64,000 nucleotides of DNA from an uncultured Candidatus Saccharibacteria bacterium (GCA_964654205.1 CAZZHR010000002.1:65800-129799); one strand, 5' to 3'; positions 9,602 to 59,149 are shown, counted from the stretch's first letter. The notes: generated by a model from the letters alone, not told the origin. Program-made: numbers and translations.

Positions 9602-9615
9602 AACCTCTAACCTAT
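9602..9615 (-). repeat. inverted copy: ATAGGTTAGAGGTT on the minus strand
   Basis: 13/14 match to ATAGGTGAGAGGTT at 9140-9153 in inverted orientation. The two copies bracket the four-helix-bundle gene. Confidence 0.75.
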
Positions 9616-14242: not shown

Positions 14243-14901
14243 ACTTCGTCGAGCATTAATTCTCGGACTGTCGATTTCCGTGCGACGATGTCGTCGAAAG
14301 CGTCTTCAACGAAACGCTGGTACTCGCGCGCACTCTTGAAGTGCTCAAGGATTGTTGCCGTATCACACAATCCCCCGGTATCTGGCGAGAGGTACTCGGC
14401 ATAGCTACTATGCGGCCACTTTCGAGCGTCTCGCACAAGCTTCGCCACTTGGGGATTCACATGAATATAGGCCGAGAGGTGTTTGAGTTGCGTATCGTCT
14501 ACCACATGCACGGCCTTGATGCGATCCTGAAATACATGTCCCACATGATCGTACTTGCGATTGAAGTACATCGAGTAGCTCGTCAGTAGTTTCAGAAAAA
14601 GTTTACTAATCGATACATCTTTGTTCTGTCGTATGAGAAAATGGAAATGATTAGGCATAAGACAGTACACAGCAATCGAGAATGCATCTCTTTCGAATGG
14701 CTCGATGCGAATCTGGACGCGCTTCCCGCCGGTGTGCAAGGGCGCCCCTTGCACATCGCGACCGAGAGAGCGCATAAGTCGGTCTAGGAAAACTCGTGCA
14801 TCCTCATCATCTCGAAGGATGTCCATCTTGCCATTGCCGCGGCTGAAGAGGTGGTACCACTCTCCTGTCGAGAACTCTTTGTAGTCGCGTGAATTTGTCA
14901 T
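14239..14901 (-). CDS. REP-associated tyrosine transposase (RAYT) / IS200-like Y1 transposase homolog
   Basis: WYHLFSRGN, the HUH motif CLMPNHFHFLI, GHVFQDR and YIHVNP (catalytic Tyr region). There is no second IS gene. Confidence 0.85.
   Translation of the reverse strand: MTNSRDYKEFSTGEWYHLFSRGNGKMDILRDDEDARVFLDRLMRSLGRDVQGAPLHTGGKRVQIRIEPFERDAFSIAVYCLMPNHFHFLIRQNKDVSISKLFLKLLTSYSMYFNRKYDHVGHVFQDRIKAVHVVDDTQLKHLSAYIHVNPQVAKLVRDARKWPHSSYAEYLSPDTGGLCDTATILEHFKSAREYQRFVEDAFDDIVARKSTVRELMLDEV
14735..14753. repeat. third copy of the REP-like palindrome, inside the RAYT ORF and in frame
   Basis: TGCAAGGGCGCCCCTTGCA on the plus strand. It encodes VQGAPLH between the N-terminal strand and the HUH motif. 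Confidence 0.85.
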
Positions 14902-14911
14902 ACTCGATTAG

Positions 14912-17900
14912 TCATCTAAAGCCCGTGGCAGCCGCGCCGAATACGACGAGCGAGCTGGTCGCATTGGTCGCGACAAATGAGACGAGGTCACATTGGTTGG
15001 CCGTCGTGGTGAGTGTCGGTGCGCTTCCACCCTGCCAGCGCACGACCGCTGGCCAGGTCAGTGTGCGGCTTCCCGTGCCGTCTTGGCACACCACGAGACG
15101 GAGGATTTGCCCCGCGATGAAATTGGAGAATGTAATCGTGCGGTTGCCGCCGAGTGTCACCTTCTGCTGGTTGCCTTCAAGCCAGTTGATAGCCACGGTC
15201 GCGCCGTCGGAGAGACTCCTTTCCACCGTGGTGATAGCGCCACCCGCACCCACCGCAAATTTCGCAAACGGCGTCGATGTACCCACACCCACGTTGCCGT
15301 TGGCGTTGATGACAAAGAGGGACTGCGCTGTGGTGGAAGCGACCTGTATGAAGTTGGTCGAGCTATCCTGCGTCTCTATCGTGAGCTTGGCCGCAGGGGT
15401 CGTGGTGCCGATTCCTGCCGCTGTCTCTACATAGAGCTTGCCCGCTCCAGTCGGCGACGTGGGGCAGCCGGATGCGCAGACAAGGAGGTTGTCGTCGGAG
15501 AGCAGAATGTTTTTGTTGGACGTGTGTATCGTAAGGTCGCCAGTCGAGTCCACTTGGAGCGAGGCGACCGTGGAATCATTGTACGAAATCGCTACCTGAG
15601 GATTCGCCGCTGCAGCCGTCACCGAGAACTTGCGGTACGGCGATGTGGTGCCGACACCGAAGAATCCGGCACTCGTGGCGCGCATCACCTCGGTGAGCGC
15701 GCCACTTTGCAGTGTCGAGAACACGAGGTCGCCCTTCCCGAGCCCGCCGAAGTTCTGTTGCAAGATGCTCGTGATTGCAGAAGTCGTCGTACCCGTGCCG
15801 GTGACATCGAGCGCGCGGAATGAGAGCCGCGATGCGGTCGATGTCGCGCTCGCCGCATTGGTGAGGTAGAGCTGGTCGGCGGTCGCGCCGGAAGATGTGT
15901 TGTAGACATCGAGCTTCGTGCCCGGCGTCGTCGTACCGATGCCGACATTGCCCGTGCTGGTGATGCGCATTCGCTCTTGGCTCGACTCATATCCACCAGT
16001 CCTAAACTGAATACTGTCGGAGCCGCCTGATGCAACATTCCCGTTGGTAAAGAGCACCAGACTAGTATTCGAACCGAAACTCGTGTTTCCGCCGAGACCG
16101 TATCCGACACCAGACCCGTACGCACGGAAGTAGCCTGTCGCAGTATCGCTATGTACAGTGTATGTGCTCTGACCATTGCTATTTGCATTCGTCACCGTGA
16201 CCCCGTCGACGCTCGCTACATTGCTGTACACAGTGAGTTTTGTAGACGGAGTCGTCGTCCCTACCCCCACGTTGCCGGTGTTTGTCACCGCAAAGAGCGA
16301 GCTCGTCGCGCTCGCGGTCGAGCTCGCTATCTCGAAGAGCATCGTATTGGTCTCGCCCGACAGTGCGTGCACTGAGAGCTTAGCCCACGGCGACGACGTG
16401 CCGATACCGAAGCGCGCATTGACCGTATCCCACGTGAGCGTACTCGACGCCGCCATCACGCCGCCGTAGTTGAATTGTATGTTGCCGTTGCCGCCTGCCG
16501 GAGCCGAGCCGCCGGATGCGAGGAGGGAGCCGGAGAAGTATGTGTAGACTGCCGAACCATCGACAGCTGTACCCGTTGAAAGCACCGCTGCTTCGAGATA
16601 GTCGGATGTTCCATTCATGTCGACAATGGTGGTTACTTGCGCCGCATCTGCACCACCCGATCGATAGGGACCGTTTGCTATCGCGACACCGTTCTTACGG
16701 ACAGCTGCCTGACAGTTGTTTGTGGTATTTGTACATCCAACAGACGCGACAACGATATACTTGCCGGCTACCGTAGGTGTGAAGCGGTTGGTCGTTAGGT
16801 CAAAATTGTTGTTGGTATCGTAAGTTTCAGTCGTCCAATCGACCACAAGTACCGTATCGCTCACAGTGGTTGTCGCCGACCCATTGCGATGCACATGGAA
16901 CGCTACCGTAGAAGAAGCGGTTCCAACCGTGCGGTTCGTGTAGACCTTGACCGCGAATCCGCCTGCGCCGCCTGCGCCGCCTGCGCCTCCAGTGCCCGCA
17001 TTTCCAGCGCTACCCCCGGAGCCAACGGTGAAATAGAAAGTCCCCGTCGGACTGCCTACAAGCTCGTACGCGTATCCTCCGCCTCCACCTCCGCCTCCAC
17101 TCCATACGTTGTTGAGATCATTGATTCCGCCGCCAGCCCCTCCTCCTCCGAACGCGTTGCCTGCGCCGCCTGCTGCCGTAGTACCCGCTCCGCCACCCCC
17201 ACCGCGGGCACCATTGCCCCCCGCTCCTCCCACTGCGTACAGATCTTGCGTCTCCCCACCATCCGCATCAATACCAAGCGTGAGTCCGCCTGCACCACCA
17301 ACGAGATTTACTTCGCCACCGGAGCCAGAACCGCCAGATGCCGCAGGCCCATTGGAGCCAGACCCACCGCCTCCGCCCGTCGCACTTAAGTGCGGAGAGG
17401 AGCATGCGACAGAATTGCTTCCGAAGCATGTCGTACCTCCTACGCCACCATTGCCGCCGTTGCCTCCACCGCCACCCCCTCCACCGCCGCCCCAAACCTC
17501 CACTTCTATATATGACGTATCGCTCGGGAGCGTGAGCGTGCCACCGGAGAAGCTCGGTGCGCTGCCGGGGTCTCCGGTGAAGACCACCGACGAGGTTCCC
17601 ACAGTGGAAGTCGCGTATGTTCCTATGAGCGTGTTGCCACCACCTCCGCCTCCACTCGAGCCGCTCCCCGTCCCCGCACACTGTCCGCTCGGGAGCAGGA
17701 AGCAGCCGCTCGTGAGTTGGACGCCACCCGCAAAGGTGGATGTTGCCGAGCCGGTGATATTGAGGAGTGTTGATTGAATGCCGCCAGAGAATGTTGTGGT
17801 GGAAGGCGACCCAAACGTCGCTGCGCCGGTGGATGCCGAGAACGAGAGCGCGGCTACCGTAGAAGTCGACGAGTGCGTCGAGGTGGCGAGGTAGAAGGTG

Positions 17901-20900
17901 CTGCCGATGTTGCGGAGTGTCCAGAGATTGCTGCCGAGCCCGTCCGAGAGCGCGAGCTGCGGACCTGTCGAGCTCGCGACCGTAAGAATATGGTACGGTG
18001 TCGTCGTACCGATGCCGAACGTACCGTTGAAATAGCCGAGACCGTTGTCGAGAATGCGGAAGCGCGTCGTCGAGGCGGAGTCGAAGAATTCCGTGAGTAT
18101 GCCCGTGCCCGTCCCAGATCCCTGCACTGAGAGCTTAGCCCACGGTGACGTGGTGCCGATTCCGACGTTGCCCGTCGAACCCTGAATGAGCATTCTCGTC
18201 GCGTAACTCCCGGCCGTTGCGTTGGCCTTGAAATGGAGGTCGCCATTGTTGCCCGTCTGCCCTATCTCCGCCCAGCCCGTGCCAGTACCCGCGCCGCCGG
18301 TCGTGAATATCATGCTGCCGACGTTGCCTGTACCGGCTCTGTTGAGGAAGAGTCGGAAGTCGCCCGACGTGTCAAAGGCCGCACTCGTACCGAAGACGTC
18401 GAGCTTACTCCCCGGCGTCGTCGTACCGATTCCCACGCTGCCGGTGCTCTTTACCGCCAAAAGGTCACCGCCGGATCCGCTCGATGAGTTGAGCTGCAAG
18501 AGGTCCGCGCTGGAACCGGTATGAAGACTTCCAACGATGACGGGCTTCGCGATGTCGTGCTCGTTGTAGATGTTGAAGATACCTGTAAAGGTCGGGGAGG
18601 TTTTGCCAAAACCGATCTCCCCCGTGGGACTGACGATGAAGGCGTTGACGCCGTCGGTCCTGTTCTGGAAGAAGAGCGCCCCAGCAGGAGTATTGCCGCT
18701 ATCCCCCGCGAGGAAGCCCCATTTCTTACCGCCGGAGTCCGTATTCTGGAGATTGAACCACGGATCGCTGCCGCTCACATGGAACTTCGCGTCGCTTGAA
18801 GCTGCGCCCACGCCGAGCAGACCCTGCACGAGTAGGTTACCTGTCGTCGTCGCGCCGCCTGAGATCGTGAGGCCGCCCGCCTGTGTGCCGTCGCCGATGG
18901 TGGAACTTGCTGTGACACCGAGGCCGCCAGTTACAGCGAGTGTGGTCCACGGACTTACGTTGCCGATACCGACACTTCCACCACCGCTTTGAAGGACGAG
19001 ATTATTCCATGCACCGGCACCGCTGCTCTGTGCGCTGAGTCCAAAATAAGTATTGCCCGTGCTCGCGCCCGACGCTACAAAGAGCACCGAACCGGCTGAA
19101 CCAGAGACCCAATCGCTCGTCGTTATCGCAAGTTGTGAAGGCGCATTACCGCCAGTAATTTGCAACTTACCGTTGGTCGGACTCGCCGTGCCGATACCGA
19201 AGTTGCCGCTGATGCGGTCGACGAAGACGAGCGGCGAGGAGGTACCGACGGTAAAGAGCGAGGTCGATGGCGGCGTCGATGTGCCGACGGCGAGACCGCC
19301 GGAGGCGATTGTGCTCGTCGCCGTCGTCGAAGTGGCGACGAAATATGAAGCGTCGACGAATGACGTAAAGCGAGCATTGCCACTAACGTGAAGCTTATAG
19401 GTGGGAGAGGTATTACCTATACCTACAGAGCCAGCTGTATTGAGGAACAATAAGTCTGTCGCCGCGGCGCCCGTGCTGATGGAAAATCCAGAGCTATCGT
19501 TACCACTGATTCCGACTTTCCATTCTGGAGTCGTACCGCTTCTGACAAAGCTGACATTCGGTGCCACATTTCCGTTTATCAAAATTCCTTGATACGTCGT
19601 TCCTGCAGTCACATGGAGTGGCTGCTGCGGATTTGTTGTTCCAATTCCAACCCGACCGCTTGGGTTCCAAATGCCGGAGCCCGGGAAGAATGCGGTGCCA
19701 GAGACAGAGAGCGCGGTTGAGGACGCATACGGGAACGTGGACGCTGCTGTGGTAGAAGTCGCAGTGAAGATTGGCGCGGTGATGGTGTTGTATGCGGTGA
19801 GTGCGCCGCGCAGGAGTGAGCTGCCCGCGACTGAGAGGTTTCCGCTTGAGTCGATGGTCGTCGTCGCGCTGCCGCCGAAGTACGCAGTGCCAAAGTTGGA
19901 GAAGTTAGTACTCGACGCATTCCCCGAGAATATCTGGAGCGCCGTCCAGTTGTTGGAGACACTTGTGTCCACGGAGCCCCCACCGCCCGTGATACAAGCA
20001 CCGTCTACGGCAAAGCATCCGTCGGCGAGGTTTATTCCATTGGCAAATGTGGTAGTAGCCGAGCCGGTAAAGGTAATATCGCTCAGCGTAGTCCCAGAAA
20101 GGGTACCGCCCGTAATCGTCGAGTCGGAGATATCGACGCTGCTGAGCTGATCGATTTTGTTTGTGTGCGCGACCGTCTGATACACATTGGTAATACTTGC
20201 CGACTGCGCTGTAGAGACACCGGCGACGAGGCTTGTGAGTCGCTGTTCCACGGCTGCGATCCGCGTATCGAGGTCGGCATCCGTGATGCCGCCGACAGAT
20301 GCAACTATGCGCTCGGTCTCGACGATACGTTCAACGACTCGTTCGTTTGTCACCACAGTCGATGTGCTCACAACAACAGGCGTTTGCTGCGATTGCGCTA
20401 CGATAACCTGTGCGCGTTCATACGGATCCATCGTGTCGATGAATCCCGCATCGAGCGGTGTAAGTGCGAGCGAGTTCGTCGCGTCACTCGGGAACACGAT
20501 GTTGTAGACGAACGTGTCGACGCTCGTGTTGACTGCCTTCGCGATGGTGCGCAGCGCATCAGGGAAGAAAGAAAGTGTCGCGCTCGATACTTGTGCGAGC
20601 GCGACCTCGGGATTCTCAACCGCATAGTACGTCGCATCACTCGCCGCGCGCACCGCGCGCGTCGCCACTTCATCAACTCGTACGAGCGACTGCGCGACGC
20701 TCGCCGCCATCTCGCGCGTAGTCTCCGCTGCAAACCGCGCATAGGCTGGGTCGACAAACGCATACGTGCCAAATGTCATGGTGAACGCAACGAGCATCGC
20801 GACAAACTTCTGCAGAAACTCCGTCGCGGGAGAAATCGTGTACACCGGCACGTGCACATGTGCGTGACTCAAAGTACGAGCAACCGCCTCGTGCACGCCC

Positions 20901-21349
20901 GACGGCGCCGCTGCGATAGACGGCATCGCGTGAGCGACCTTCGCGCTCTGCGCCACCGCCGCAGCCTTCAATTTTTCCTGCACATGCTTCGCGTGCGCCG
21001 CCAACGTCTTCGTCACAGGTATTTGTCCGCTCACAGAAAGGGCGCTCTCGACACTCTTTACACTTTCAGATTTCAACTTTATATCTTGTGGCTTATTCTC
21101 CACCCCGTGATATTCACGCACCCGTTCATCCGACAGCTGCTCCCTGCGGATGGTTTTCGCATGCTCTTGCTCCACGAGGTATTTTTGGAGCGAGCCCTCA
21201 TCGACGTACCAGTTCTTGCCGATTCTTCTACCGCGAAGCCTTCCATCACGGCAAAGACGAGCGATGTAGTCGCGAGAGAGCCCTGCACTGGATGAAGCAT
21301 CCCCGGCCGAGAGGTGCTTCTGCCCGTCGAAATATATTTCGTTGCTCAT
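14912..21349 (-). CDS. giant (2145 aa from ATG 21349) membrane protein: cytoplasmic excisionase-type HTH, one TM, then an ectodomain of GIGTTxP repeats, a glycine-rich domain and a C1q-like domain
   Basis: One uninterrupted ORF. Modules are listed separately. I prefer ATG 21349 (MSNEIYFDG) over GTG 21430 because the paralogous module in the next gene starts at the same relative position. Confidence 0.9.
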   Translation of the reverse strand: MSNEIYFDGQKHLSAGDASSSAGLSRDYIARLCRDGRLRGRRIGKNWYVDEGSLQKYLVEQEHAKTIRREQLSDERVREYHGVENKPQDIKLKSESVKSVESALSVSGQIPVTKTLAAHAKHVQEKLKAAAVAQSAKVAHAMPSIAAAPSGVHEAVARTLSHAHVHVPVYTISPATEFLQKFVAMLVAFTMTFGTYAFVDPAYARFAAETTREMAASVAQSLVRVDEVATRAVRAASDATYYAVENPEVALAQVSSATLSFFPDALRTIAKAVNTSVDTFVYNIVFPSDATNSLALTPLDAGFIDTMDPYERAQVIVAQSQQTPVVVSTSTVVTNERVVERIVETERIVASVGGITDADLDTRIAAVEQRLTSLVAGVSTAQSASITNVYQTVAHTNKIDQLSSVDISDSTITGGTLSGTTLSDITFTGSATTTFANGINLADGCFAVDGACITGGGGSVDTSVSNNWTALQIFSGNASSTNFSNFGTAYFGGSATTTIDSSGNLSVAGSSLLRGALTAYNTITAPIFTATSTTAASTFPYASSTALSVSGTAFFPGSGIWNPSGRVGIGTTNPQQPLHVTAGTTYQGILINGNVAPNVSFVRSGTTPEWKVGISGNDSSGFSISTGAAATDLLFLNTAGSVGIGNTSPTYKLHVSGNARFTSFVDASYFVATSTTATSTIASGGLAVGTSTPPSTSLFTVGTSSPLVFVDRISGNFGIGTASPTNGKLQITGGNAPSQLAITTSDWVSGSAGSVLFVASGASTGNTYFGLSAQSSGAGAWNNLVLQSGGGSVGIGNVSPWTTLAVTGGLGVTASSTIGDGTQAGGLTISGGATTTGNLLVQGLLGVGAASSDAKFHVSGSDPWFNLQNTDSGGKKWGFLAGDSGNTPAGALFFQNRTDGVNAFIVSPTGEIGFGKTSPTFTGIFNIYNEHDIAKPVIVGSLHTGSSADLLQLNSSSGSGGDLLAVKSTGSVGIGTTTPGSKLDVFGTSAAFDTSGDFRLFLNRAGTGNVGSMIFTTGGAGTGTGWAEIGQTGNNGDLHFKANATAGSYATRMLIQGSTGNVGIGTTSPWAKLSVQGSGTGTGILTEFFDSASTTRFRILDNGLGYFNGTFGIGTTTPYHILTVASSTGPQLALSDGLGSNLWTLRNIGSTFYLATSTHSSTSTVAALSFSASTGAATFGSPSTTTFSGGIQSTLLNITGSATSTFAGGVQLTSGCFLLPSGQCAGTGSGSSGGGGGGNTLIGTYATSTVGTSSVVFTGDPGSAPSFSGGTLTLPSDTSYIEVEVWGGGGGGGGGGNGGNGGVGGTTCFGSNSVACSSPHLSATGGGGGSGSNGPAASGGSGSGGEVNLVGGAGGLTLGIDADGGETQDLYAVGGAGGNGARGGGGGAGTTAAGGAGNAFGGGGAGGGINDLNNVWSGGGGGGGGYAYELVGSPTGTFYFTVGSGGSAGNAGTGGAGGAGGAGGFAVKVYTNRTVGTASSTVAFHVHRNGSATTTVSDTVLVVDWTTETYDTNNNFDLTTNRFTPTVAGKYIVVASVGCTNTTNNCQAAVRKNGVAIANGPYRSGGADAAQVTTIVDMNGTSDYLEAAVLSTGTAVDGSAVYTYFSGSLLASGGSAPAGGNGNIQFNYGGVMAASSTLTWDTVNARFGIGTSSPWAKLSVHALSGETNTMLFEIASSTASATSSLFAVTNTGNVGVGTTTPSTKLTVYSNVASVDGVTVTNANSNGQSTYTVHSDTATGYFRAYGSGVGYGLGGNTSFGSNTSLVLFTNGNVASGGSDSIQFRTGGYESSQERMRITSTGNVGIGTTTPGTKLDVYNTSSGATADQLYLTNAASATSTASRLSFRALDVTGTGTTTSAITSILQQNFGGLGKGDLVFSTLQSGALTEVMRATSAGFFGVGTTSPYRKFSVTAAAANPQVAISYNDSTVASLQVDSTGDLTIHTSNKNILLSDDNLLVCASGCPTSPTGAGKLYVETAAGIGTTTPAAKLTIETQDSSTNFIQVASTTAQSLFVINANGNVGVGTSTPFAKFAVGAGGAITTVERSLSDGATVAINWLEGNQQKVTLGGNRTITFSNFIAGQILRLVVCQDGTGSRTLTWPAVVRWQGGSAPTLTTTANQCDLVSFVATNATSSLVVFGAAATGFR
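16517..16906 (-). other. C1q/TNF-like jelly-roll domain (130 aa)
   Basis: VAFHVHRNG...FDLTTNRFTPTVAGKYIVVASV...AAVRKNGVAIANG...VDMNGTSDYLEAAV...YTYFSGSLLA follows the C1q globular-domain pattern (F.A...F...G.FT.P..G.Y.F...KNG...L..GD.V...F.G.LL). Confidence 0.6.
16940..17515 (-). other. glycine-rich domain of the type seen in phage minor-tail / ALK-like Gly_rich proteins
   Basis: Opens with IEVEVWGGGGGGGGGGNGGNGG, has internal EVNLVGGAGG and FYFTVGSGGSAGNAGTGGAGG, and closes with GGFAVKVY. Confidence 0.6.
21173..21349 (-). other. excisionase-type (HTH_17-like) module at the N-terminus of the giant protein
   Basis: IYFDGQKHLSAGDASSSAGLSRDYIARLCRDGRLRGRRIGKNWYVDEGSLQKYL fits the pattern of HTH_17, a MerR-superfamily helix-turn-helix (hEaA..lGvs..ti.rl.r.G.l....iG..w.i....l..yl). 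Confidence 0.6.
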
Positions 21350-21650
21350 GAGCGATGATGCCTGTGGCCGGACGCACGATTTATCTAATATTCTACTACT
21401 CTTTTCGCCAATTGGACGTGTATCGGACACTATTACGTGTGGACAAGCCTAAGCAGAATTTGTACCGGACATTTTTTACATTTTTTCCCACAAGTTCGTA
21501 TCAACGCACAAAAAATTCTCCGTTTTTTTGAAAAAAAGCCTCTTCACTACAACCTCTCACCTCTTACCTACCCCCCTCCTCCCGGCCGACTCGGGCATCC
21601 GAGGAGCGACGTAGAGCGGTATTCCGCGCGTGTGTGGCGCAGAAAATGAA

Positions 21651-21670
21651 CGGCGCCCAATTGGGCGCCG
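21651..21670 (-). terminator. hairpin / terminator: CGGCGCCCAATTGGGCGCCG
   Basis: A perfect 20-nt palindrome 26 nt downstream of the 21696 stop, followed on the minus strand by TTCATTTT. Confidence 0.55.
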
Positions 21671-21695
21671 CCTTAAGGCCTAGTCACTACACGAA

Positions 21696-22682
21696 TCAGC
21701 GCGAATAGCGTACTTCTTTGCTCACGATGGCTTCCAGAAGGTCGATGAGTACTTCGAGGCCACTCGCTGCATTTGCGGTCATGGTCTCAACCGCGCCAAC
21801 ATCTGCCGCCTCGAACATTGCGTAAAGTGATTCACTCTTGATCGACGCAAAGCCATACGACATCACGATGACCACGGTGAGAGCCACGCCCGCTTTTATC
21901 GCCAAAGACTTAGACATTCCGGGCATCCGTCCACGTCGCATGGGTGCCGTCTTGGCCACTGCATGCGGCACAGCACCTGCACGAGCCCGCGTCTCAACAA
22001 TGCGAATCAGTACAGCATTCGGAAGCGGCTCCAACGCCGCGCTTCGCACTTCATCATTCGCCACCGTTTTCACGTCGGCTGTCGCATTTTGAGTGTCGCC
22101 CTTCAGCTGAGGTTTGTTCACCATTGGCATAAGATGCTTCTCGTCCCGGATGTAGGTGTAGTACGAGGTAGGCCTCTCATCTGATCTCAGCCCTTGAGGC
22201 ACATTACTCGGTGCCGGTCGTACCAGGCCTACTGCATCCGCCTGGACTGCAGCGAGAAGCGAATCTTTCTGGGATTTATGCGTCAAAAGGCCGTTTCTCT
22301 CGACATACCAGCGATTCCCTATTTGCCGAGAGAGTATTTTGCCGGCCCGAGCGAGCTGACCAATGTAGTCAGGATTGTAGCCTGTCATTTTCGCGGCCTT
22401 TGCCGCCGAGACATAGTCCTTGCCATCGAAGGTAATGAGTGTGTCGGCTGCGTCCACAGGCCGTATAGGGGCTTCTGGTGGCCTTGGGACGAATGAATCA
22501 GCATTGCGCTTGTACGCTTCGAGTGAGGCAGGATTCACGTACCAGAGCCCGCCTACGCGCTGCGCGTCGATGACTCCACCGCGCGCAAGCTGGCCGACGT
22601 AGTCCTGCGCGTAGCCGTATTCCTTTGCCGCGCGCTTCGAAGATATATATGTCGTTCCGCCGAGATATAGCTGATCTGCCAT
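21696..22682 (-). CDS. C-terminally membrane-anchored protein with two tandem excisionase-type HTH modules
   Basis: YISSKRAAKEYGYAQDYVGQLARGGVIDAQRVGGLWYVNPASLEAY and YVSAAKAAKMTGYNPDYIGQLARAGKILSRQIGNRWYVERNGL. TM helix LAIKAGVALTVVIVMSYGFASI near the C-terminus. A TATACT box lies 6 nt upstream of ATG 22682. Confidence 0.8.
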   Translation of the reverse strand: MADQLYLGGTTYISSKRAAKEYGYAQDYVGQLARGGVIDAQRVGGLWYVNPASLEAYKRNADSFVPRPPEAPIRPVDAADTLITFDGKDYVSAAKAAKMTGYNPDYIGQLARAGKILSRQIGNRWYVERNGLLTHKSQKDSLLAAVQADAVGLVRPAPSNVPQGLRSDERPTSYYTYIRDEKHLMPMVNKPQLKGDTQNATADVKTVANDEVRSAALEPLPNAVLIRIVETRARAGAVPHAVAKTAPMRRGRMPGMSKSLAIKAGVALTVVIVMSYGFASIKSESLYAMFEAADVGAVETMTANAASGLEVLIDLLEAIVSKEVRYSR

Positions 22683-22688
22683 GATGCA

Positions 22689-22694
22689 AGTATA
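22689..22694 (-). promoter_or_regulatory. -10 box TATACT 6 nt before ATG 22682 (leaderless geometry)
   Basis: The minus strand reads ttgTATACTtgcatcATG. Confidence 0.45.
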
Positions 22695-22756
22695 CAATGA
22701 GCCGCATCTCGGCTTCCCGACTTTCCGAGATTATGTGGACAGCGCAGTTCCTTCGC

Positions 22757-24625: not shown

Positions 24626-27151
24626 CTACACGACAATGCGCCACCCGTCTGCGAGTAGGGGCTCGGCCTTCTTAAATTTCATTTCCTTGGTCTCAGTGCC
24701 ATTCGTAATAATGACTTTGTCGTTGCGACGGTATTCTTTCTTGCCCGCAATGGGCGCTTGTGCGGTGATACTCCGCGCCGCTCGCGATACCGCTTGTTCC
24801 CCCGCCGTCGCCGTGTGCACTCGCGGCGCCGCTCCGATATGTGGAATTAGTGTTCGTACGTGCGCAGCATACGTCTCCTCTAGCTGCTGGAAAAGCCTGC
24901 GACCTTCTTTTTTGTACTCGACGAGCGGATCGCGCTGTCCGTATGCGCGGAGATTCACGCTCGAGCGCAGGTACTCCATAGCTTCGAGATGCTCCACCCA
25001 GAGAAAGTCGATGCCCTGTAAGAGTATGCGGCGCACCGTCGGGACAAACGCATCCGTAAGCTCCTCTTTCTTTTTCTGTATAGCTTGAGCAAGAGCCTCA
25101 TCAGAGAGCGCGAGCCGCTCGAGCTCAGCCAGTACCGCCCCCTCTCCACCCGTCAGGAGGTCACGGCGACGTGTGTAGATGCTCTTGCGCTGGATGTTGA
25201 GCACATCGTCGTATGCGAGCACATGCTTGCGTGAGTCGAAGTGTATCTCCTCTATTCGCGTCTGCGCCTTCTCGAGCGAGCGCGTGATCATTTTGTTGAA
25301 TATCGGCTCGTCCTCGGGAATATTGAAGCTCCCCATCACCCGCTTGATGACGTCGCTCGCAAAAACGCGCATGAGACTGTCCTCAAGCGAAACGTAGAAC
25401 TGTGTCGCACCCGGGTCCCCTTGTCGGCCTGAGCGGCCACGCAGCTGGTTGTCGATGCGGCGCGCTTCGTGGCGCTCGGTGCCGAGCACAAAGAGGCCGC
25501 CGAGACTTTTTACTTCCTCGTAACTCTCCGGTGTCCCTGGATTGCCGCCGAGCTTAATGTCGACGCCTCGGCCGGCCATGTTGGTCGCGATGGTTACCGC
25601 GCCCTTCTTCCCGGCTTGCGCGACGATCTCACCCTCGCGCTCGTGATTCTTTGCGTTGAGCACTTCGTGCGGGATGCCCTCTTGCTTGAAGTACACCGAG
25701 AGCAGCTCGTTCTTTTCCACCGATACGGTACCGATGAGGACGGGCTGCCCCTTCTCGTGCAGCTCGCGCACGCGCTTCGCTATGGCTTTCATCTTGCCGT
25801 TCTCGGTCTGCAGGATGAGGTCGTCGAGGTCTGTTCGCTGAACGGGCTTGTTGGTCGGCACACTCGCTACGTTCAGGCCATATACCTTGTAGAATTCTTC
25901 GGACGAAGTGGCTGCGGTACCCGTCATGCCCGCGAGCTTGTCGTAGAGGCGGAAATAATTCTGGAAAGTTATCGATGCGAAAGTACGGCTCTCCTGTTGG
26001 ACTGAGACACCCTCCTTTGCCTCTATGGCCTGGTGGAGGCCATCAGACCACCTGCGCCCTGGCTGCATGCGACCCGTGAACTCGTCGACAATGATGACAG
26101 TCCCATCTCGCACTACGTAGTCCTTGTCTCGCTCAAAGAGAGCTTTTGCTCTCACGGCGGTCTCGAGGTGATGCACCATCTTGATGCCAGCATCCGTATA
26201 TATATTGTCTATCCCGAGCGCTGCCTGCGCCTTCTCGATACCTGCATCGGTCATCGCTATCTGTTTGTGCTTTTCGTCTACGGTGAAGTCCTCCTCGCGA
26301 ACCATGCCGCGCGCAATCTGCGCGAATCGCCCGTAGAGCGATTCTGCCTGCGAGACGGGTGCCGAGATAATCAGTGGCGTGCGTGCCTCGTCGATGAGGA
26401 TGGAATCTATCTCGTCGACTATTGCGAACCGGTACCCGCCATCCTGCGGGACGCGCTGACGCAAACCTGCTGCCTCGTATTCAAGGTTGTCGCGGAGGTA
26501 GTCGAAGCCGAATTCATTGTTGGTACCGTAGGTGATGTCGGCGGCATATGCTTCCCCGCGCGTACACGGACGAAGGAAATCTCGCGCCACCTTGAAGCTA
26601 CCTTCTGTATCCTGCTGCGCCTCTTCCTCCGCCTTGAGTTCCGGCGGAACATGCGATGGATCGTATATAAATGACGACTCGTGGTTGAGCACTCCCACGG
26701 TGAGGCCGAGTGCATAGTATATTTGCCCCATCCATGCGCCATCGCGGCGCGAGAGGTAGTCGTTGACAGTGATGACATGTACGCCTTTGCCCTCGAGGGC
26801 GTTGAGGTACGCTGGGAGCGTCGCGACGAGTGTCTTGCCCTCGCCCGTGCGCATCTCTGCGATGCCACCCTGGTGGAGTATCATCCCACCGATGAGCTGC
26901 ACGTCGAAGTGACGTTGACCGAGCGTCCTGCGCGACGCCTCCCTCACCGCGGCAAATGCCTCAGGCGCGAGGCTATCAAGGGATTCCCCGCCCGAAATGC
27001 GGACCTTGAATTCCGCGCTCTTTCCCTTGAGCGCCTCGTCGGTGAGCGCCGTAAACGTGTCTTCAAGTGCATTGACAGCAGCCACAATAGGCTGCGCCTT
27101 GCGGAGCGCCGCGACATTGGTATCTCCGAAGAGTCCTTTCCAAAATGACAT
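24626..27151 (-). CDS. secA: preprotein translocase ATPase SecA
   Basis: MRTGEGKTLVATLPAYLNAL, IVDEIDSILIDEARTPLIIS, GMTGTA, TNMAGRGVDIKLGG and LRGRSGRQGDPG. Trimmed to MSFWKGLFG. Confidence 0.95.
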   Translation of the reverse strand: MSFWKGLFGDTNVAALRKAQPIVAAVNALEDTFTALTDEALKGKSAEFKVRISGGESLDSLAPEAFAAVREASRRTLGQRHFDVQLIGGMILHQGGIAEMRTGEGKTLVATLPAYLNALEGKGVHVITVNDYLSRRDGAWMGQIYYALGLTVGVLNHESSFIYDPSHVPPELKAEEEAQQDTEGSFKVARDFLRPCTRGEAYAADITYGTNNEFGFDYLRDNLEYEAAGLRQRVPQDGGYRFAIVDEIDSILIDEARTPLIISAPVSQAESLYGRFAQIARGMVREEDFTVDEKHKQIAMTDAGIEKAQAALGIDNIYTDAGIKMVHHLETAVRAKALFERDKDYVVRDGTVIIVDEFTGRMQPGRRWSDGLHQAIEAKEGVSVQQESRTFASITFQNYFRLYDKLAGMTGTAATSSEEFYKVYGLNVASVPTNKPVQRTDLDDLILQTENGKMKAIAKRVRELHEKGQPVLIGTVSVEKNELLSVYFKQEGIPHEVLNAKNHEREGEIVAQAGKKGAVTIATNMAGRGVDIKLGGNPGTPESYEEVKSLGGLFVLGTERHEARRIDNQLRGRSGRQGDPGATQFYVSLEDSLMRVFASDVIKRVMGSFNIPEDEPIFNKMITRSLEKAQTRIEEIHFDSRKHVLAYDDVLNIQRKSIYTRRRDLLTGGEGAVLAELERLALSDEALAQAIQKKKEELTDAFVPTVRRILLQGIDFLWVEHLEAMEYLRSSVNLRAYGQRDPLVEYKKEGRRLFQQLEETYAAHVRTLIPHIGAAPRVHTATAGEQAVSRAARSITAQAPIAGKKEYRRNDKVIITNGTETKEMKFKKAEPLLADGWRIVV

Positions 27152-27189
27152 GGATACCCATCCTACCACTGTGCGACTTTTCAATCCAT

Positions 27190-27226: not shown

Positions 27227-27298
27227 CTACGCGCGCTTCTTGCGCTTCGTGGCCTTCTTTTTCTTGGCTGTCTTTTTCGCCTTCTTTTTCTTTGCCAT
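27227..27298 (-). CDS. unannotated 23-aa polybasic micro-protein MAKKKKAKKTAKKKKATKRKKRA
   Basis: I translated it by hand. It is below the ORF-track cutoff. It runs ATG to TAG, has its own strong terminator, and an AT-rich -10-like AATATT lies 7 nt upstream. Confidence 0.45.
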   Translation of the reverse strand: MAKKKKAKKTAKKKKATKRKKRA

Positions 27299-27439
27299 GG
27301 TCGTAAATATTTTGAGAGTATTAAACTCGACCTTCGCTTCGCGCGCGAAACGCTACAGCGTTTACATAATTATTGCACTCATGCATGTAAAGAAATGTTT
27401 TTTGAAAAAATTGTGTGGATAACTCTTTTATTTTTTAAA

Positions 27440-27786: not shown

Positions 27787-28422
27787 CTATCGTTCTCCCA
27801 AACCGAAGTGCACTCGCAAGGGTTTATCGTACTCGATTGCGTCCGCAATAATGTATCTCACCTCCGTTCGCAGCGATGCGTCTAGCTTCAGAAGCGTTAT
27901 GATTTCTTCACAATCATACGGGTGCACCCATACGCTGTTTTGCAATCGGTGAAAACCAAGTCTCTTTAATATTTCGCGTACACGATCTCGCGTAGAGCGC
28001 CGCGCATGCGGAATGTCGAATATCACGACTCGCCAACGTCCGTCCCATCGACGCGGCCTAGGTATTTCTACGGCCGAAAGCCGGATGCGTTCCGCATGTG
28101 ACTTTCCCCTCTCCGTCAGTATGGGGTAACGTTTGCCCGAGTGCCGCATAAACTCGACCATCCCTTTTTTCTTCAATCTCGAGAGTGTCTCCCGCAGCCT
28201 CTGCGTGGGCTGCGGGGGCAGGATTACATCAAGGTGTTCTCTTTTGATGAGCGCAGCGACTTTCGGCGCCATCACCGCTACCGTGAGAATTCCTCCGAGA
28301 GCGAGCGTACCTATCACAGCTCTTTCTATCGATCCGCGTCTCAACCGCAGACGAACTCCACTCTCCTGGGATACGCGCGATTCTTGCTCACGCCTCTTCT
28401 GGGTATTCTGTTTTTGCCGCAT
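27787..28422 (-). CDS. PaaX-family-like regulator with a Cas2/VapD-fold C-terminal domain
   Basis: LRETLSRLKKKGMVE (winged-helix-like), then WDGRWRVVIFDIPHARRSTRDRVREILKRLGFHRLQNSVWVHPYD, typical of PaaX C-terminal or Cas2-like domains. ATG 28422 has TACAAT 6 nt upstream. TTG 28437 is an alternative start. Confidence 0.7.
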   Translation of the reverse strand: MRQKQNTQKRREQESRVSQESGVRLRLRRGSIERAVIGTLALGGILTVAVMAPKVAALIKREHLDVILPPQPTQRLRETLSRLKKKGMVEFMRHSGKRYPILTERGKSHAERIRLSAVEIPRPRRWDGRWRVVIFDIPHARRSTRDRVREILKRLGFHRLQNSVWVHPYDCEEIITLLKLDASLRTEVRYIIADAIEYDKPLRVHFGLGER

Positions 28423-28428
28423 GAGTGC

Positions 28429-28434
28429 ATTGTA
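28429..28434 (-). promoter_or_regulatory. -10 box TACAAT 6 nt before ATG 28422 (leaderless geometry)
   Basis: The minus strand reads gtTACAATgcactcATG. Confidence 0.45.
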
Positions 28435-28443
28435 CAAACTTGT

Positions 28444-28469: not shown

Positions 28470-28622
28470 ACAATTCAGGAATGTTCCCTTTAGTCCTGTT
28501 GTGCAGTGTGCATAAACTGAATACCGCCCTTTCGGGCGGTACTTCAGCGACTTTCAATCTGCGAGCCACACTTTGTGGCACTCACGTATTCATTATATGT
28601 ACCGCGCAGCGACGCGCAAGTA

Positions 28623-30854: not shown

Positions 30855-30861
30855 AGCCGGG

Positions 30862-30867
30862 ATTCTA
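30862..30867 (-). promoter_or_regulatory. -10 box TAGAAT 7 nt before ATG 30854
   Basis: The minus strand reads TAGAATcccggctATG. Confidence 0.4.
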
Positions 30868-59136: not shown

Positions 59137-59143
59137 GCACGGT

Positions 59144-59149
59144 ATTATG
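59144..59149 (-). promoter_or_regulatory. -10 box CATAAT 7 nt before ATG 59136
   Basis: The minus strand reads cgCATAATaccgtgcATG. Confidence 0.4.

What the first reader, a model, noticed from the sequence alone, without database searches (positions are those of the whole stretch)
20753..22682. Excisionase-type HTH modules tethered to the membrane: three copies in two adjacent genes, one fused to a 1900-aa ectodomain
A ~50-aa module recurs with the pattern (I/L)xFDGxxx(L/V)SAxxAxxxxGxxxDYIxxLxRxGx(I/L)xxxxIGxxWYVxxxxL.

- It occurs once at the N-terminus of the 2145-aa giant (21173-21349).
- It occurs twice in the upstream 328-aa protein (about 22509-22661 and 22278-22436).
- The pattern matches excisionase/MerR-superfamily HTH_17 DNA-binding domains.

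In the giant, a ~120-aa linker and a single TM helix (20753-20818) follow the module. This puts the HTH in the cytoplasm and everything else outside. In the neighbouring protein the TM is C-terminal.

The topology resembles ToxR/CadC-type one-component transmembrane regulators, but with a tail-fibre-like sensor of unprecedented size. It could couple an external binding event directly to DNA binding, tether the nucleoid to the attachment site, or use the fold for protein-protein contacts between the two paralogs.
Basis: inference. Interest (0 to 1): 0.72.

Follow-up and report, generated by a model that had tools for sequence, protein, structure and literature searches.

The report
Membrane-tethered HTH proteins anchoring giant fibres
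In a group of tiny uncultured (CPR) bacteria, a small membrane protein with two DNA-binding-type domains always sits next to a huge tail-fibre-like surface protein with a third copy on its cytoplasmic end, so these cells may link their surface fibres directly to their DNA.

Summary
Three copies of a ~56-aa module are present (pairwise E ~1e-15). They match HTH_17 and fold as excisionase/BldC/RacA-type winged helices (pLDDT >93). In both proteins a single TM helix follows.

This is a conserved Kaiserbacteria/Parcubacteria gene pair, not an oddity. In 43 of 45 species loci, a 2xHTH-TM protein (~320 aa) lies directly upstream of a 1xHTH-linker-TM protein. The ectodomain of the second protein ranges from about 40 aa to more than 3,400 aa. 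It resembles tail fibres and Bdellovibrio MAT fibres. So the HTH-TM end is an invariant handle on a hypervariable adhesin, not on a ToxR-style sensor.

New here: an ~85-nt non-coding block precedes the fibre gene in essentially all loci. It carries 3-4 same-orientation TTATCC(A/C)CA boxes about 11 nt apart, then a TAAAAT element. Searching metagenomes with part of this block alone recovers HTH-TM genes (33/40).

Best reading (about 0.4): these are transmembrane transcription regulators or locus tethers that bind the boxes. Rivals: the HTH is a protein-docking handle, or the boxes belong to DnaA. DNA binding is untested.

The parts
14912..21349 (-). Giant gene (2145 aa): wHTH, helix, disordered linker, TM, then a 1946-aa fibre-like ectodomain
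   Evidence: ORF. The ATG start is supported by conserved N-termini. Orthologues are present in 45 species loci.
21176..21343 (-). Giant HTH module (aa 3-58), topology beta-beta-alpha-alpha-beta-beta
   Evidence: PF12728 scores 25.4 bits, E 1.7e-5. AF2 pLDDT is 95-97. Foldseek finds Xis 4j2n at prob 1.0 and rmsd 1.9 A, BldC 6ama at TMt 0.72-0.74, and RacA 5i44. hhalign to the neighbour family gives prob 98.7, E 2.8e-16.
21110..21199 (-). Conserved basic helix after the module (aa 51-80; family consensus FLVxQEYxKxxRxExLxxERxREYH)
   Evidence: AF2 helix 51-80 with pLDDT of about 88-96. Invariant L72, R76, E79 and Y80 in alignment A2.
20819..21109 (-). Variable, mostly disordered cytoplasmic linker (aa 81-177)
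   Evidence: pLDDT is below 50 over aa 86-114 and 134-172. The region is poorly conserved and variable in length in A2.
20753..20818 (-). Giant TM helix (aa 178-199). Its juxtamembrane context is unusually conserved: EFxHKxxALxLAxMLTFGTYAxVDPxYARFA
   Evidence: Coordinates. AF2 helix 174-199. The sequence is conserved across about 45 loci.
14915..20752 (-). Ectodomain: tail-fibre/MAT-like fibre with seven VG(I/V)G(T/N)xxPxxKL motifs, a Gly-run region and a weak C1q-like head
   Evidence: PHROG tail-fibre families phrog_9942 and phrog_18345 at E ~1e-12, and phrog_9017. Bd2133 (8ond) at E 2.5e-6. Motif count. C1q at 17.8 bits, below cutoff.
21377..21446 (-). Conserved non-coding block upstream of the giant gene. 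It holds box A (TTGTCCACA, 21438-21446), further GTCC-type boxes, and GTAGTAGAATATTAGATAAATCG (21377-21399), which contains a -10-like TAGAAT/TAAAAT
   Evidence: k-mer enrichment: CTAGTAAAAT in 25/43 intergenic regions against a shuffle maximum of 3. Fixed 47-nt spacing. Alignment of the block across the loci that carry a box. Window matches. A metagenome scan with part of the block recovers HTH-TM genes in 33/40 loci.
21649..21672 (-). Terminator-like hairpin after the small gene, which suggests the two genes are separate transcription units
   Evidence: Stem of 10 pairs (8 GC) followed by a T-rich tail. The sequence was read.
21696..22682 (-). Neighbour gene (328 aa): two wHTH modules, a linker, a TM and a 47-aa extracytoplasmic tail
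   Evidence: 682 homologues at E<=1e-3, the best 120 listed nearly all full length, named Kaiserbacteria/Paceibacterota/Minisyncoccota. Alignment A1. AF2 model.
22509..22676 (-). Neighbour module 1 (aa 3-58); near-neutral (family mean net charge -0.1)
   Evidence: HTH_17 stretch. pLDDT of about 97. Charge statistics.
22275..22442 (-). Neighbour module 2 (aa 81-136); basic (family mean net charge +4.0); followed by a conserved helix HKxxKDxLLAAVQAE
   Evidence: Best HTH_17 stretch at aa 91-133. pLDDT 93-97 and helix 129-151. Charge statistics.
21840..21905 (-). Neighbour TM helix (aa 260-281), preceded by RRGRMPGMSK
   Evidence: Hydropathy scan. AF2 helix 257-284. Positive-inside bias of 4.05 against 1.67 K+R over 43 homologues.
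21699..21839 (-). Neighbour extracytoplasmic tail with a conserved helix (TAxAA...GDxLE...PELxYxR)
   Evidence: Conserved columns in A1. AF2 helix 299-320.
22689..22742 (-). Promoter-like region of the small gene: box CTGTCCACA (22734-22742) and TATACT (22689-22694) ending 6 nt before the ATG. This suggests a leaderless mRNA
   Evidence: Sequence read. The same (A/T)ATCCACA ... TATACT-N6-7-ATG layout occurs in most of 43 loci.

Best explanation
What is shown. This is a conserved two-gene unit specific to one CPR lineage (Kaiserbacteria and related Parcubacteria).
- Gene 1 encodes a bitopic membrane protein. Two excisionase/BldC-type winged-helix modules lie in the cytoplasm, followed by a C-terminal TM and a short outside tail.
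- Gene 2 encodes a surface fibre anchored N-in, C-out, related to tail fibres and MAT fibres.
- The invariant N-terminal 'handle' of gene 2 is one such module, a basic helix, a disordered linker and a conserved TM. Its ectodomain is swapped and resized freely between species.

What is inferred.
- The three modules are DNA-binding.
- They recognise the conserved same-orientation TTATCC(A/C)CA-type boxes. These boxes lie about 50 nt upstream of the -10-like element of the fibre gene, of the small gene and of HTH-TM paralogues. There are three to four of them, about 11 nt apart, in front of the fibre gene.
- They would bind head-to-tail, as BldC and Xis do on direct repeats.
- The proteins would then act as transmembrane transcription regulators. 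They would hold their own locus at the membrane and auto-control it, favouring coupled transcription, translation and Sec export (transertion) of a 2000-aa membrane-anchored fibre.
- No sensing of an outside signal is needed for this model.
For: Fold and homology:
- Pfam HTH_17 is above cutoff on the neighbour and just below on the giant.
- AF2 pLDDT is 93-97.
- Foldseek's top matches are all DNA-bound wHTH proteins of this class: TraN, with the same tandem arrangement in one chain, and Xis, BldC, RacA and RdfS.

Conserved pairing:
- The small protein lies directly upstream of the HTH-TM protein in 43/45 species loci. The other two loci lack upstream DNA.
- The same synteny is seen in L001, L003 and L006.
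- The N-terminal handle family is large. Among 50%-identity representatives, 175 reach E<=1e-30 and 2689 reach E<=1e-10. In nearly all of the 150 listed, the match starts within the first ~100 residues, and lengths run up to 5533 aa.

Residues compatible with DNA contact:
- The positions that align (by hand) with BldC Arg30 and Lys33 are invariant Arg31 and Arg34 in the giant module (BldC contacts from PMC5859096).
- Module 2 has a mean net charge of +4.0 and the giant module about +1.5 to +1.8.

Candidate operator:
- An ~85-nt non-coding block is conserved across loci whose proteins share only ~30-70% identity.
- The box occurs preferentially in non-coding DNA. Of 110 matches, 72 lie in the 12% of sequence that is non-coding, peaking 60-100 nt upstream of ORF starts.
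- The box also precedes divergently placed HTH-TM paralogues.
- Part of the block, used alone as a query, retrieves HTH-TM genes from metagenomes in 33/40 loci.

Precedent:
- BldC binds 9-bp direct repeats head-to-tail (PMC5859096).
- TraN is a tandem-wHTH repressor (PMC6158623).
- Membrane-anchored regulators recruit target loci to the membrane (VtrA/VtrB, PMC9977878; ChiS/TfoS, PMC11856585).
Against: - No direct evidence of DNA binding exists.
- The box consensus TTATCCACA is also the canonical DnaA box (my own knowledge). Same-orientation 9-mers about 11 nt apart are also how DnaA arrays look, so DnaA could own these sites.
- The box also occurs upstream of a 23-aa Lys-rich ORF before secA, upstream of the gatB region, and upstream of a fibre gene that has no HTH in L004. 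So it is not exclusive to HTH genes.
- Module 1 is near-neutral, and both neighbour modules have Gln where BldC has its base-contacting Arg.
- The recognition helices stay invariant while box sequences drift between clades (TTATCCACA against TTGTCCACA/GTCCGATA). There is therefore no covariation to support the pairing.
- The same fold is used for protein-protein contacts in CbpM (3ucs) and DafA (9dvi), both among the structural hits.
Confidence: 0.4

Rival explanations
1. Protein-docking handle. The wHTH modules do not bind DNA. They mediate protein-protein contacts in the cytoplasm. The fibre's module docks onto the two modules of the small protein, or onto another cytoplasmic partner. The small protein would act as an assembly, sorting or anchoring partner for whichever fibre carries the handle. 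This would parallel RodZ, which uses its HTH to hold MreB.
For: - The constant-handle, variable-ectodomain pattern resembles the invariant N-terminal anchoring domain of Bdellovibrio MAT fibres (PMC10769870).
- The pair is strictly adjacent in 43/45 loci.
- Module 1 is near-neutral yet almost invariant.
- The TM and juxtamembrane sequence of the fibre is unusually conserved, and the small protein has a conserved outside helix. Both suggest contacts within or across the membrane.
- CbpM and DafA, which share the fold, bind proteins.
Against: - It does not explain the conserved repeat boxes in front of these genes.
- The small protein persists in L004, where the adjacent fibre has a plain signal peptide and no handle.
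- Module 2 and the giant module keep a basic recognition helix and wing typical of DNA binders.
Confidence: 0.3
2. Outside-in receptor. The fibre is the sensor of a ToxR/CadC-like one-component system. Binding or pulling at the fibre tip changes DNA binding by the cytoplasmic HTH.
For: - The architecture is bitopic and N-in with a cytoplasmic HTH.
- There is a co-encoded small membrane partner, as in ToxR/ToxS or VtrA/VtrC (PMC9977878).
- There are candidate operator boxes.
Against: - The HTH is HTH_17, not OmpR-type.
- Orthologues with the same handle are as short as 235-326 aa in total, leaving only about 40-150 aa outside, while others exceed 3500 aa. No conserved sensor exists.
- A ~100-aa disordered linker is a poor transmitter of conformational change.
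- The ectodomain looks like an adhesin.
Confidence: 0.1
3. Architectural nucleoid tether. The modules bind DNA with little specificity and simply staple the chromosome to the envelope or fibre base, as RacA anchors DNA at the cell pole. The conserved boxes belong to another factor such as DnaA.
For: - RacA is among the best structural matches.
- The box equals the DnaA-box consensus, and the ~11-nt same-orientation spacing fits DnaA arrays (my own knowledge of DnaA arrays).
- The box occurs at other promoters in the neighbourhood.
Against: - The box profile differs from a textbook DnaA profile (TTWTNCACA, my own knowledge). Position 5 is C in 73% of blocks and position 7 is A or C (39 against 27).
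- There is no GC-skew turn at 21.4 kb, so this is not oriC.
- The very strict conservation of the recognition helices suggests a specific target.
Confidence: 0.12
4. Mobile-element or prophage remnant. On this view an excisionase gene, tail-fibre genes and a transposase are left over from an integrated element.
For: - PHROG excisionase hits are weak, E 6e-5 and worse.
- PHROG tail-fibre and 'virion structural protein' hits exist.
- An IS200-like Y1 transposase gene lies between the two giant genes.
Against: - The pair keeps the same place between gatB/secA and the second giant gene across dozens of species.
- No integrase is seen.
- No relative was found in 2.9 million viral contigs.
- The modules are fused to TM segments.
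- The transposase slot holds other small selfish genes in other genomes.
Confidence: 0.03

Closest known systems
BldC / Xis / RdfS-type stand-alone excisionase-like wHTH proteins (Pfam HTH_17, MerR-like)
   Same: The fold is the same (Foldseek prob 0.9-1.0, rmsd about 2 A), and there is an HTH_17 profile match. These proteins bind arrays of direct repeats head-to-tail (PMC5859096). That is the layout of the boxes found upstream of the fibre gene.
   Different: Those proteins are small and soluble. Here every copy is tethered to the membrane, one of them on a 2000-aa fibre. An extra N-terminal beta-hairpin is present. DNA binding is untested.
TraN of plasmid pIP501 (4pm3/4p0z)
   Same: It is the best structural match to the small protein (E 4e-3, prob 0.98). 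Two excisionase-like wHTH domains sit in one chain, and the protein acts as a monomeric repressor on a defined site (PMC6158623).
   Different: TraN is cytosolic, is encoded in a conjugative T4SS operon and has no TM segment. Sequence identity is only 12-15%.
Transmembrane transcription regulators (ToxR/ToxS, TcpP, CadC, VtrA/VtrC-VtrB, ChiS/TfoS)
   Same: They share the bitopic N-in layout with a cytoplasmic DNA-binding domain. They share co-encoded membrane partners. They recruit target loci to the membrane and support transertion of envelope machines (PMC9977878, PMC11856585).
   Different: Their DNA-binding domain is OmpR/PhoB-type or another type, not HTH_17. Their outside domains are compact conserved sensors, not hypervariable fibres.
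Bdellovibrio MAT (mosaic adhesive trimer) fibres and phage tail fibres
   Same: The ectodomain matches Bd2133 at the sequence level (E 2.5e-6) and PHROG tail-fibre families. It carries the VG(G/N)xxxPxxxL-type motif (PMC10769870). It follows the same logic of a constant N-terminal anchor with variable tips.
   Different: MAT fibres have a signal peptide followed by a conserved ~130-aa beta-rich domain. Here the anchor is a cytoplasmic wHTH plus a TM helix. No S74 chaperone-protease domain was detected.
RodZ (HTH-TM-periplasmic domain, binds MreB)
   Same: It is a bitopic protein with an N-terminal cytoplasmic HTH that is used to hold a cytoplasmic partner rather than DNA. It is the model for the docking-handle rival. 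This comparison rests on my own knowledge and was not tested here.
   Different: RodZ has an XRE-type HTH and a small periplasmic domain. No homology was detected here.

Membership tests
HTH_17 / excisionase-type winged helix (PF12728; TIGR01764) | Profile match at or above the curated cutoff | tested here: met
   The neighbour scores 38.5 bits against a cutoff of 27, in two stretches. The giant's copy scores 25.4 bits, just below cutoff. It is tied to the neighbour family by hhalign at prob 98.7, E 2.8e-16. TIGR01764 is below cutoff for both.
HTH_17 / excisionase-type winged helix (PF12728; TIGR01764) | Winged helix-turn-helix fold of the Xis/BldC/MerR N-domain type | tested here: met
   AF2 pLDDT is 93-97. 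Foldseek finds Xis 4j2n at prob 1.0 and rmsd 1.9 A, BldC at TMt 0.72-0.74, and RacA, RdfS and TraN.
HTH_17 / excisionase-type winged helix (PF12728; TIGR01764) | Binds DNA | not testable with these tools
   Only indirect evidence exists: conserved Arg at positions that contact DNA in BldC (PMC5859096), basic modules, and conserved candidate boxes.
ToxR-like transmembrane one-component regulators | OmpR/PhoB-type winged-helix DNA-binding domain | tested here: not met
   The Pfam scan finds HTH_17 only and no Trans_reg_C. The structural matches are Xis/BldC/MerR-type.
ToxR-like transmembrane one-component regulators | Bitopic, N-in topology with the DNA-binding domain in the cytoplasm | tested here: met
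   There is a single TM in both proteins. The neighbour family has a positive-inside bias of 4.05 against 1.67. For the giant the topology is inferred, because its flanking charges are uninformative.
ToxR-like transmembrane one-component regulators | Conserved extracytoplasmic sensor domain | tested here: not met
   The outside part ranges from about 40 aa to more than 3400 aa among orthologues and is fibre-like. The neighbour has only a 47-aa tail.
BldC family (stand-alone wHTH that oligomerises head-to-tail on direct repeats) | Small protein consisting only of the wHTH | tested here: not met
   All three modules are parts of membrane proteins of 328 and 2145 aa.
BldC family (stand-alone wHTH that oligomerises head-to-tail on direct repeats) | Target sites are arrays of same-orientation repeats about one helical turn apart | tested here: inconclusive
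   Such an array (boxes spaced 12/11/11 nt, all in one orientation) lies upstream of the fibre gene in most loci. Which protein binds it is unknown, and DnaA is a rival.
MAT / tail-fibre-like trimeric fibres | Sequence similarity to fibre shafts and the VG(G/N)xxxPxxxL motif | tested here: met
   PHROG tail-fibre families at E ~1e-12. Bd2133 at E 2.5e-6. Seven motifs.
MAT / tail-fibre-like trimeric fibres | Signal peptide followed by the conserved ~130-aa beta-rich N-terminal domain (PMC10769870) | tested here: not met
   The N-terminus is wHTH, linker and TM instead. A related genome (L004) does have a plain signal-peptide fibre at this position.
MAT / tail-fibre-like trimeric fibres | Forms trimers | not testable with these tools
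   No multimer prediction was available. A weak C1q-like head (17.8 bits, below cutoff) is only a hint.
DnaA-box cluster | 9-mers matching TTWTNCACA in arrays (consensus from my own knowledge) | tested here: inconclusive
   Box A has the consensus TTATCC(A/C)CA. However, position 7 is C in 27 of 73 blocks and position 5 is C in 73%. There is no skew inflection at the site. No DnaA protein or oriC was available for comparison.

The most novel reading that the evidence does not exclude
The fibre's own N-terminal wHTH, together with the two modules of the partner protein, binds the repeat array in front of the fibre gene while the rest of the 2000-aa chain is still being made and exported. Each fibre base would then be physically stapled to its gene. 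The cell would get a self-tethering transertion device with built-in copy-number feedback. Tension on the fibre from host contact could possibly pull the HTH off the DNA. That would make it a direct mechanical link between host attachment and gene expression in an episymbiotic CPR bacterium.
Probability: 0.12. Interest if true: 0.85.

Novelty: new variant of a known kind. Interest (0 to 1): 0.62.

Why it matters
CPR/Patescibacteria are thought to live attached to other cells, but how they attach and how they regulate attachment is largely unknown.

This locus offers three things:
- A conserved family of candidate attachment fibres with swappable tips.
- A conserved pair of membrane-tethered DNA-binding-type domains linked to those fibres.
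- A short, well-defined DNA element to test them on in vitro, with no need to culture the organism.

If the modules bind the boxes, this would extend transmembrane transcription regulators to the excisionase/BldC fold and to adhesins. It would also be a natural example of a membrane protein tied to its own gene. If they do not, it would be a new use of this fold as a cytoplasmic anchoring handle for surface fibres.

Tried and rejected
- **Longer ORF from GTG 21430 (2172 aa).** Rejected. The extension overlaps the conserved non-coding block. In other loci stop codons lie between the block and the ATG; for example, in L017 the module starts at residue 4 of the stop-to-stop frame.
- **Prophage or mobile element.** Rejected because of the conserved chromosomal synteny and the absence of viral relatives.
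- **oriC at the repeat array.** Unlikely. Cumulative GC skew runs straight through 21.4 kb, and the window has no box enrichment overall (10 matches against 6.8 expected).
- **Box as a general promoter element of the organism.** Not supported within this 64-kb window, where boxes appear only at a few promoters of this neighbourhood. Not testable genome-wide.
- **Known RNA in the intergenic region.** There are no Rfam hits anywhere in the window.
- **Paralogy of the two proteins beyond the HTH.** hhalign aligns only the module. A resemblance between the TM segments seen by eye was not significant and is not claimed.
- **Covariation between box variants and recognition-helix residues.** None was seen. 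The helices are invariant.
- **Search with the giant's N-terminal 300 aa in the word-indexed protein database.** It gave only 12 hits, mostly fragments. The exhaustive profile search was needed to see the family.
- **Profile search of the small-protein family against PDB sequences.** Nothing meaningful was found.
- **Literature searches.** Three keyword searches (HTH_17/transmembrane/Parcubacteria; Patescibacteria surface or giant proteins; membrane-bound regulators) returned no description of this module-TM family.

Full report

Yes. All the genes discussed here are on the minus strand.

- The giant gene runs from 21349 (ATG) to 14912 and encodes 2145 aa. The neighbour runs from 22682 to 21696 and encodes 328 aa.
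- The ~56-aa module occupies giant aa 3-58 (21176-21343), neighbour aa 3-58 (22509-22676) and neighbour aa 81-136 (22275-22442).
- The giant's TM (FLQKFVAMLVAFTMTFGTYAFV) is aa 178-199 = 20753-20818. The neighbour's TM is aa 260-281 = 21840-21905.
- The copies share 42-43% identity without gaps, with BLASTP E of 4e-15 to 7e-15.
- An HMM of the module finds these three copies and nothing else in the six-frame translation of the window.
- The mechanical ORF of the giant extends to a GTG at 21430. That extension lies over a conserved non-coding block, and all homologues begin MS(D/N)EI(F/Y)FDG.

**2. What is the module?**

- Pfam HTH_17 (PF12728) matches the neighbour at 38.5 bits (cutoff 27) in two stretches. 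It matches the giant's N-terminus at 25.4 bits, just under the cutoff. NCBIfam 'excise' is weak.
- Profile-profile comparison of the two protein families aligns only the module, at prob 98.7% and E 2.8e-16.
- AlphaFold2 models built on family alignments give pLDDT 93-97 for all three modules. The topology is beta-beta-alpha-alpha-beta-beta followed by a helix.
- For the neighbour model, Foldseek against the PDB ranks TraN of pIP501 first. TraN has two excisionase-like winged helices in one chain, the same tandem layout.
- For the giant model, it ranks mycobacteriophage Pukovnik Xis first (prob 1.0, rmsd 1.9 A), then RacA and BldC (TMt 0.72-0.74).
- RdfS and MerR-family N-domains follow in both lists.
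- Two proteins that use this fold to bind proteins rather than DNA also appear: CbpM and DafA.
The fold assignment stands.

**3. Topology.**

- The neighbour family has a clear positive-inside signature. It averages 4.05 K+R in the 15 residues before the TM against 1.67 after, over 43 homologues. The ~260 residues before the TM carry two folded domains and no signal peptide, so the orientation is N-in.
- For the giant the flanking charges are uninformative (1.15 against 1.46). N-in is inferred for three reasons. There is no signal peptide. Its module is homologous to the neighbour's. The C-terminal 1946 aa is fibre-like.
- After the giant's module comes a conserved basic helix (aa 51-80). A poorly conserved, low-confidence linker follows (aa ~86-172), then the TM helix.
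- The TM and its surroundings (EFxHKxxALxLAxMLTFGTYAxVDPxYARFA) are unusually conserved for a simple anchor.

**4. What is the ectodomain?**

- Pfam sees only a sub-threshold C1q-like region.
- PHROGs give tail-fibre families at E ~1e-12.
- A PDB sequence search finds Bd2133, a Bdellovibrio 'mosaic adhesive trimer' fibre, at E 2.5e-6.
- The protein carries seven VG(I/V)G(T/N)xxPxxKL motifs. These fit the MAT/S74 shaft motif described in PMC10769870.
- 'Tail-fibre-like' is therefore supported.

**5. Is it a one-off?**

No.

- The neighbour has 682 homologues at E<=1e-3. The best 120 listed are 299-358 aa and nearly all align over the full query. Those with names are labelled Kaiserbacteria, Paceibacterota or Minisyncoccota.
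- Genomic context is conserved: Wzy_C/TPR protein, secA, gatB, small 2xHTH-TM protein, then giant. This order is seen in L001 (a complete 859-kb genome), L003 and L006.
- A scan of one genome per GTDB species with the giant's N-terminal family found 45 loci. The informative record titles name Kaiserbacteria, Parcubacteria or Patescibacteria, and a few automatic labels differ.
- In 43 of the 45 loci the two-module small protein lies directly upstream of the one-module protein. The two exceptions lack upstream sequence.
- The downstream protein always has a TM 90-250 residues after the module. Its complete length is 235, 299, 326, 929, 1262, 1482, 1600, 2121, 2224, 2256, 2371 or 3156 aa. Contig-truncated examples exceed 3599 aa.
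- Several loci hold extra HTH-TM paralogues. Two large proteins carry two modules.
- An exhaustive profile search of 1.84 billion representatives found 175 clusters at E<=1e-30 and 2689 at E<=1e-10. In nearly all of the 150 listed, the match begins within the first ~100 residues, and lengths run up to 5533 aa.
- In one genome (L004) the fibre at this position has an ordinary signal peptide and no module, while the small protein is still present.
- No relatives were found in viral contigs.
- The anatomy is thus a constant cytoplasmic-plus-TM handle on a freely exchanged surface fibre, with a constant small partner. The same logic is described for MAT fibres, which have an invariant N-terminal anchor and variable tips (PMC10769870). 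Here the anchor is entirely different.

**6. A conserved non-coding element (not in the original finding).**

The intergenic region between the two genes is long for such small genomes, at 135-935 nt. It contains a block conserved at the nucleotide level across loci whose proteins share only ~30-70% identity.

- The consensus is TTATCCACA-ta-TTTaTgCAC-cCG-aTATCCACA-cG-ATATCCG-GAATAa-CTAGTAAAATA(c)TAGATAAATCG. The ATG follows 30-60 nt later.
- It reads as three to four same-orientation boxes spaced 12/11/11 nt, followed by a -10-like TAAAAT.
- In the window the block is at 21377-21446: box TTGTCCACA at 21438-21446 and GTAGTAGAATATTAGATAAATCG at 21377-21399. In this clade the inner boxes are of the GTCCGATA type.
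- A single box at a similar distance (~50 nt) from a -10-like element also precedes several other genes:
  - the small gene, where TATACT ends 6-7 nt before the ATG, suggesting a leaderless mRNA;
  - the divergently placed HTH-TM paralogues;
  - the signal-peptide fibre of L004;
  - a 23-aa Lys-rich ORF in front of secA (window 27414-27422);
  - the gatB upstream region in several loci.
- Across the loci, 72 of 110 box matches lie in the 12% of sequence that is non-coding. They peak 60-100 nt upstream of ORF starts.
- A metagenome scan using only the CTAGTAAAAT...TAGNTAARTCG part returned 44 loci. In 33 of the 40 with a downstream ORF, that ORF begins with the HTH module. In the other seven, the first ORF after the block is not an HTH gene. 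Six of them encode small proteins that recur across loci: the protein family that lies between the block and the fibre gene in L011/L013, and a second family I take to be GIY-YIG-like.
- The window has no Rfam hit and no sigma-70 -35/-10 match in this region.
- A terminator-like hairpin (21649-21672) separates the two genes.

**7. Mechanism.**

The best-supported reading is that the modules bind DNA and that these boxes are their targets.

- Proteins with this fold that have been studied bind arrays of direct repeats head-to-tail (BldC, PMC5859096). As a tandem pair in one chain, they act as a site-specific repressor (TraN, PMC6158623).
- The giant module keeps invariant Arg at the positions that align, by hand, with BldC's base- and phosphate-contacting Arg30 and Lys33.
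- Module 2 is strongly basic, at +4.0.
- A conserved regulator gene next to conserved repeats in its own promoter is the usual signature of autoregulation.
- Because all three modules are membrane-tethered, binding would hold the locus at the membrane. Membrane-anchored regulators that recruit their targets to the membrane and promote transertion of envelope machines are documented (VtrA/VtrB, PMC9977878; ChiS/TfoS, PMC11856585).
- secA lies two genes upstream of the pair. A signal peptidase I gene (9612-10112) lies just beyond the second giant gene. This fits an export-centred neighbourhood, but it is only circumstantial.

I put this reading at about 0.4. The steps 'binds DNA', 'binds these boxes' and 'tethers or autoregulates' are all inferred.

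**8. Rivals.**

- **(a) Docking handle, about 0.3.** The modules mediate protein contacts between the fibre and the small protein, or another partner.
  - For: module 1 is near-neutral yet nearly invariant. Both neighbour modules have Gln at the BldC Arg30 position. The fibre's TM and the small protein's outside helix are conserved. CbpM and DafA show the fold can bind proteins.
  - Against: it leaves the boxes unexplained, and the small protein persists without an HTH-bearing fibre in L004.
- **(b) The boxes belong to DnaA, and the modules are non-specific tethers or something else, about 0.12.**
  - For: TTATCCACA is the canonical DnaA box, and same-orientation 9-mers two nucleotides apart resemble DnaA arrays (my own knowledge).
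  - Against: position 7 is C in 27 of 73 distinct blocks and position 5 is C in 73%. There is no GC-skew turn here.
The absence of any conserved outside domain and the long disordered linker argue against it.
- **(d) Prophage remnant, about 0.03.** Effectively excluded by the synteny.

**9. Comparison and novelty.**

- By fold and profile the modules are members of the HTH_17/excisionase-like class.
- The proteins are not members of the ToxR-like family, which requires an OmpR-type domain (tested, not met).
- They are not members of the BldC family, which requires a stand-alone protein (not met).
- They are not members of the MAT family as defined by its N-terminal domain (not met).
- Functionally they most resemble transmembrane transcription regulators, combined with MAT-like fibres.
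- The literature searches run here turned up no description of this module-TM architecture, of the gene pair or of the upstream block. Database names are 'hypothetical protein' or 'helix-turn-helix domain-containing protein'.
- I rate it a new variant of known kinds. It is of real interest because it is widespread in a major uncultured lineage, ties candidate host-attachment fibres to a DNA-binding fold, and can be tested in vitro at once.

Noticed in passing
window 21377-21446 (- strand); L007-L051 intergenic regions; L052-L095: An ~85-nt non-coding block lies upstream of the HTH-TM fibre gene. It has 3-4 same-orientation TTATCC(A/C)CA boxes about 11 nt apart, then CTAGTAAAATA(c)TAGATAAATCG. 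It is conserved across loci whose proteins share only ~30-70% identity. A metagenome scan with part of the block alone retrieves HTH-TM genes in 33/40 loci.
   Followed up: yes
window 27227-27298 (- strand), box at 27414-27422: A 23-aa Lys-rich ORF (MAKKKKAKKTAKKKKATKRKKRA) lies upstream of secA and is followed by a hairpin with a T-run (read by eye). A perfect TTATCCACA box sits about 50 nt upstream of a -10-like element. A box-preceded, very basic ORF recurs a few kb upstream of the small gene in at least 10 other loci; secA lies at that position in the loci where genes were called.
   Followed up: partly
window 22689-22694 and 22682; same position in most of 43 loci: A TATACT -10-like hexamer ends 6-7 nt before the ATG of the small HTH gene, and no Shine-Dalgarno sequence is visible. 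This suggests a leaderless mRNA.
   Followed up: partly
window 10115-14242 (- strand): A second giant surface protein (1375 aa, N-terminal TM/signal anchor). It carries DUF7483 (E 1e-82) and SPRY. It also matches a PHROG 'virion structural protein' family very strongly (phrog_19943, E 5e-161) and a tail-fibre family (E 4.5e-53). Homologues follow the HTH-TM fibre gene in L001 and L003.
   Followed up: partly
window 14239-14901 (- strand); L001 18077-18568; L003 18492-18950; L011/L013 about 9.5 kb: The slot between the two giant genes holds an IS200-like Y1 transposase gene here. In L001 and L003 it holds a 23S_rRNA_IVP-type gene. In L011/L013, and in several metagenome loci, a small gene is instead inserted between the conserved promoter block and the fibre gene. 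In the metagenome loci these are the same small protein as in L011/L013 or a GIY-YIG-like protein (my reading). These positions look like hotspots for small selfish genes.
   Followed up: no
window 9612-10112, 24626-27184 and 28623-31010 (all - strand): Signal peptidase I, SecA and a Wzy_C/TPR (O-antigen-ligase-like) protein flank the fibre genes. Together they form a conserved export and envelope neighbourhood. A PaaX_M/Cas2-like 216-aa protein (27787-28437) has a near-consensus box (TTATGCACA, 28507-28515) about 70 nt upstream.
   Followed up: partly
window about 17050-17230 (giant aa ~1373-1432): The fibre contains a glycine-run region (for example GGGGGGGG and GGGGAGGG). The opposite strand gives a long proline-rich pseudo-ORF (17109-17777, + strand). 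This is probably a flexible or collagen-like segment. The antisense ORF is an artefact of composition.
   Followed up: no
window 57928-61079 (- strand): A ComEA-like HHH_3 + PKD protein lies next to a T4SS coupling-protein-like ATPase (TrwB/TraG-type). The cumulative GC skew of the window turns near 58 kb.
   Followed up: no
L005 11367 onward: The source's gene calls miss the HTH-TM fibre gene in this locus. A 1327-aa ORF starting MSDHIFFDGAKYISAADAAE... is present where only small spurious genes were called.
   Followed up: partly
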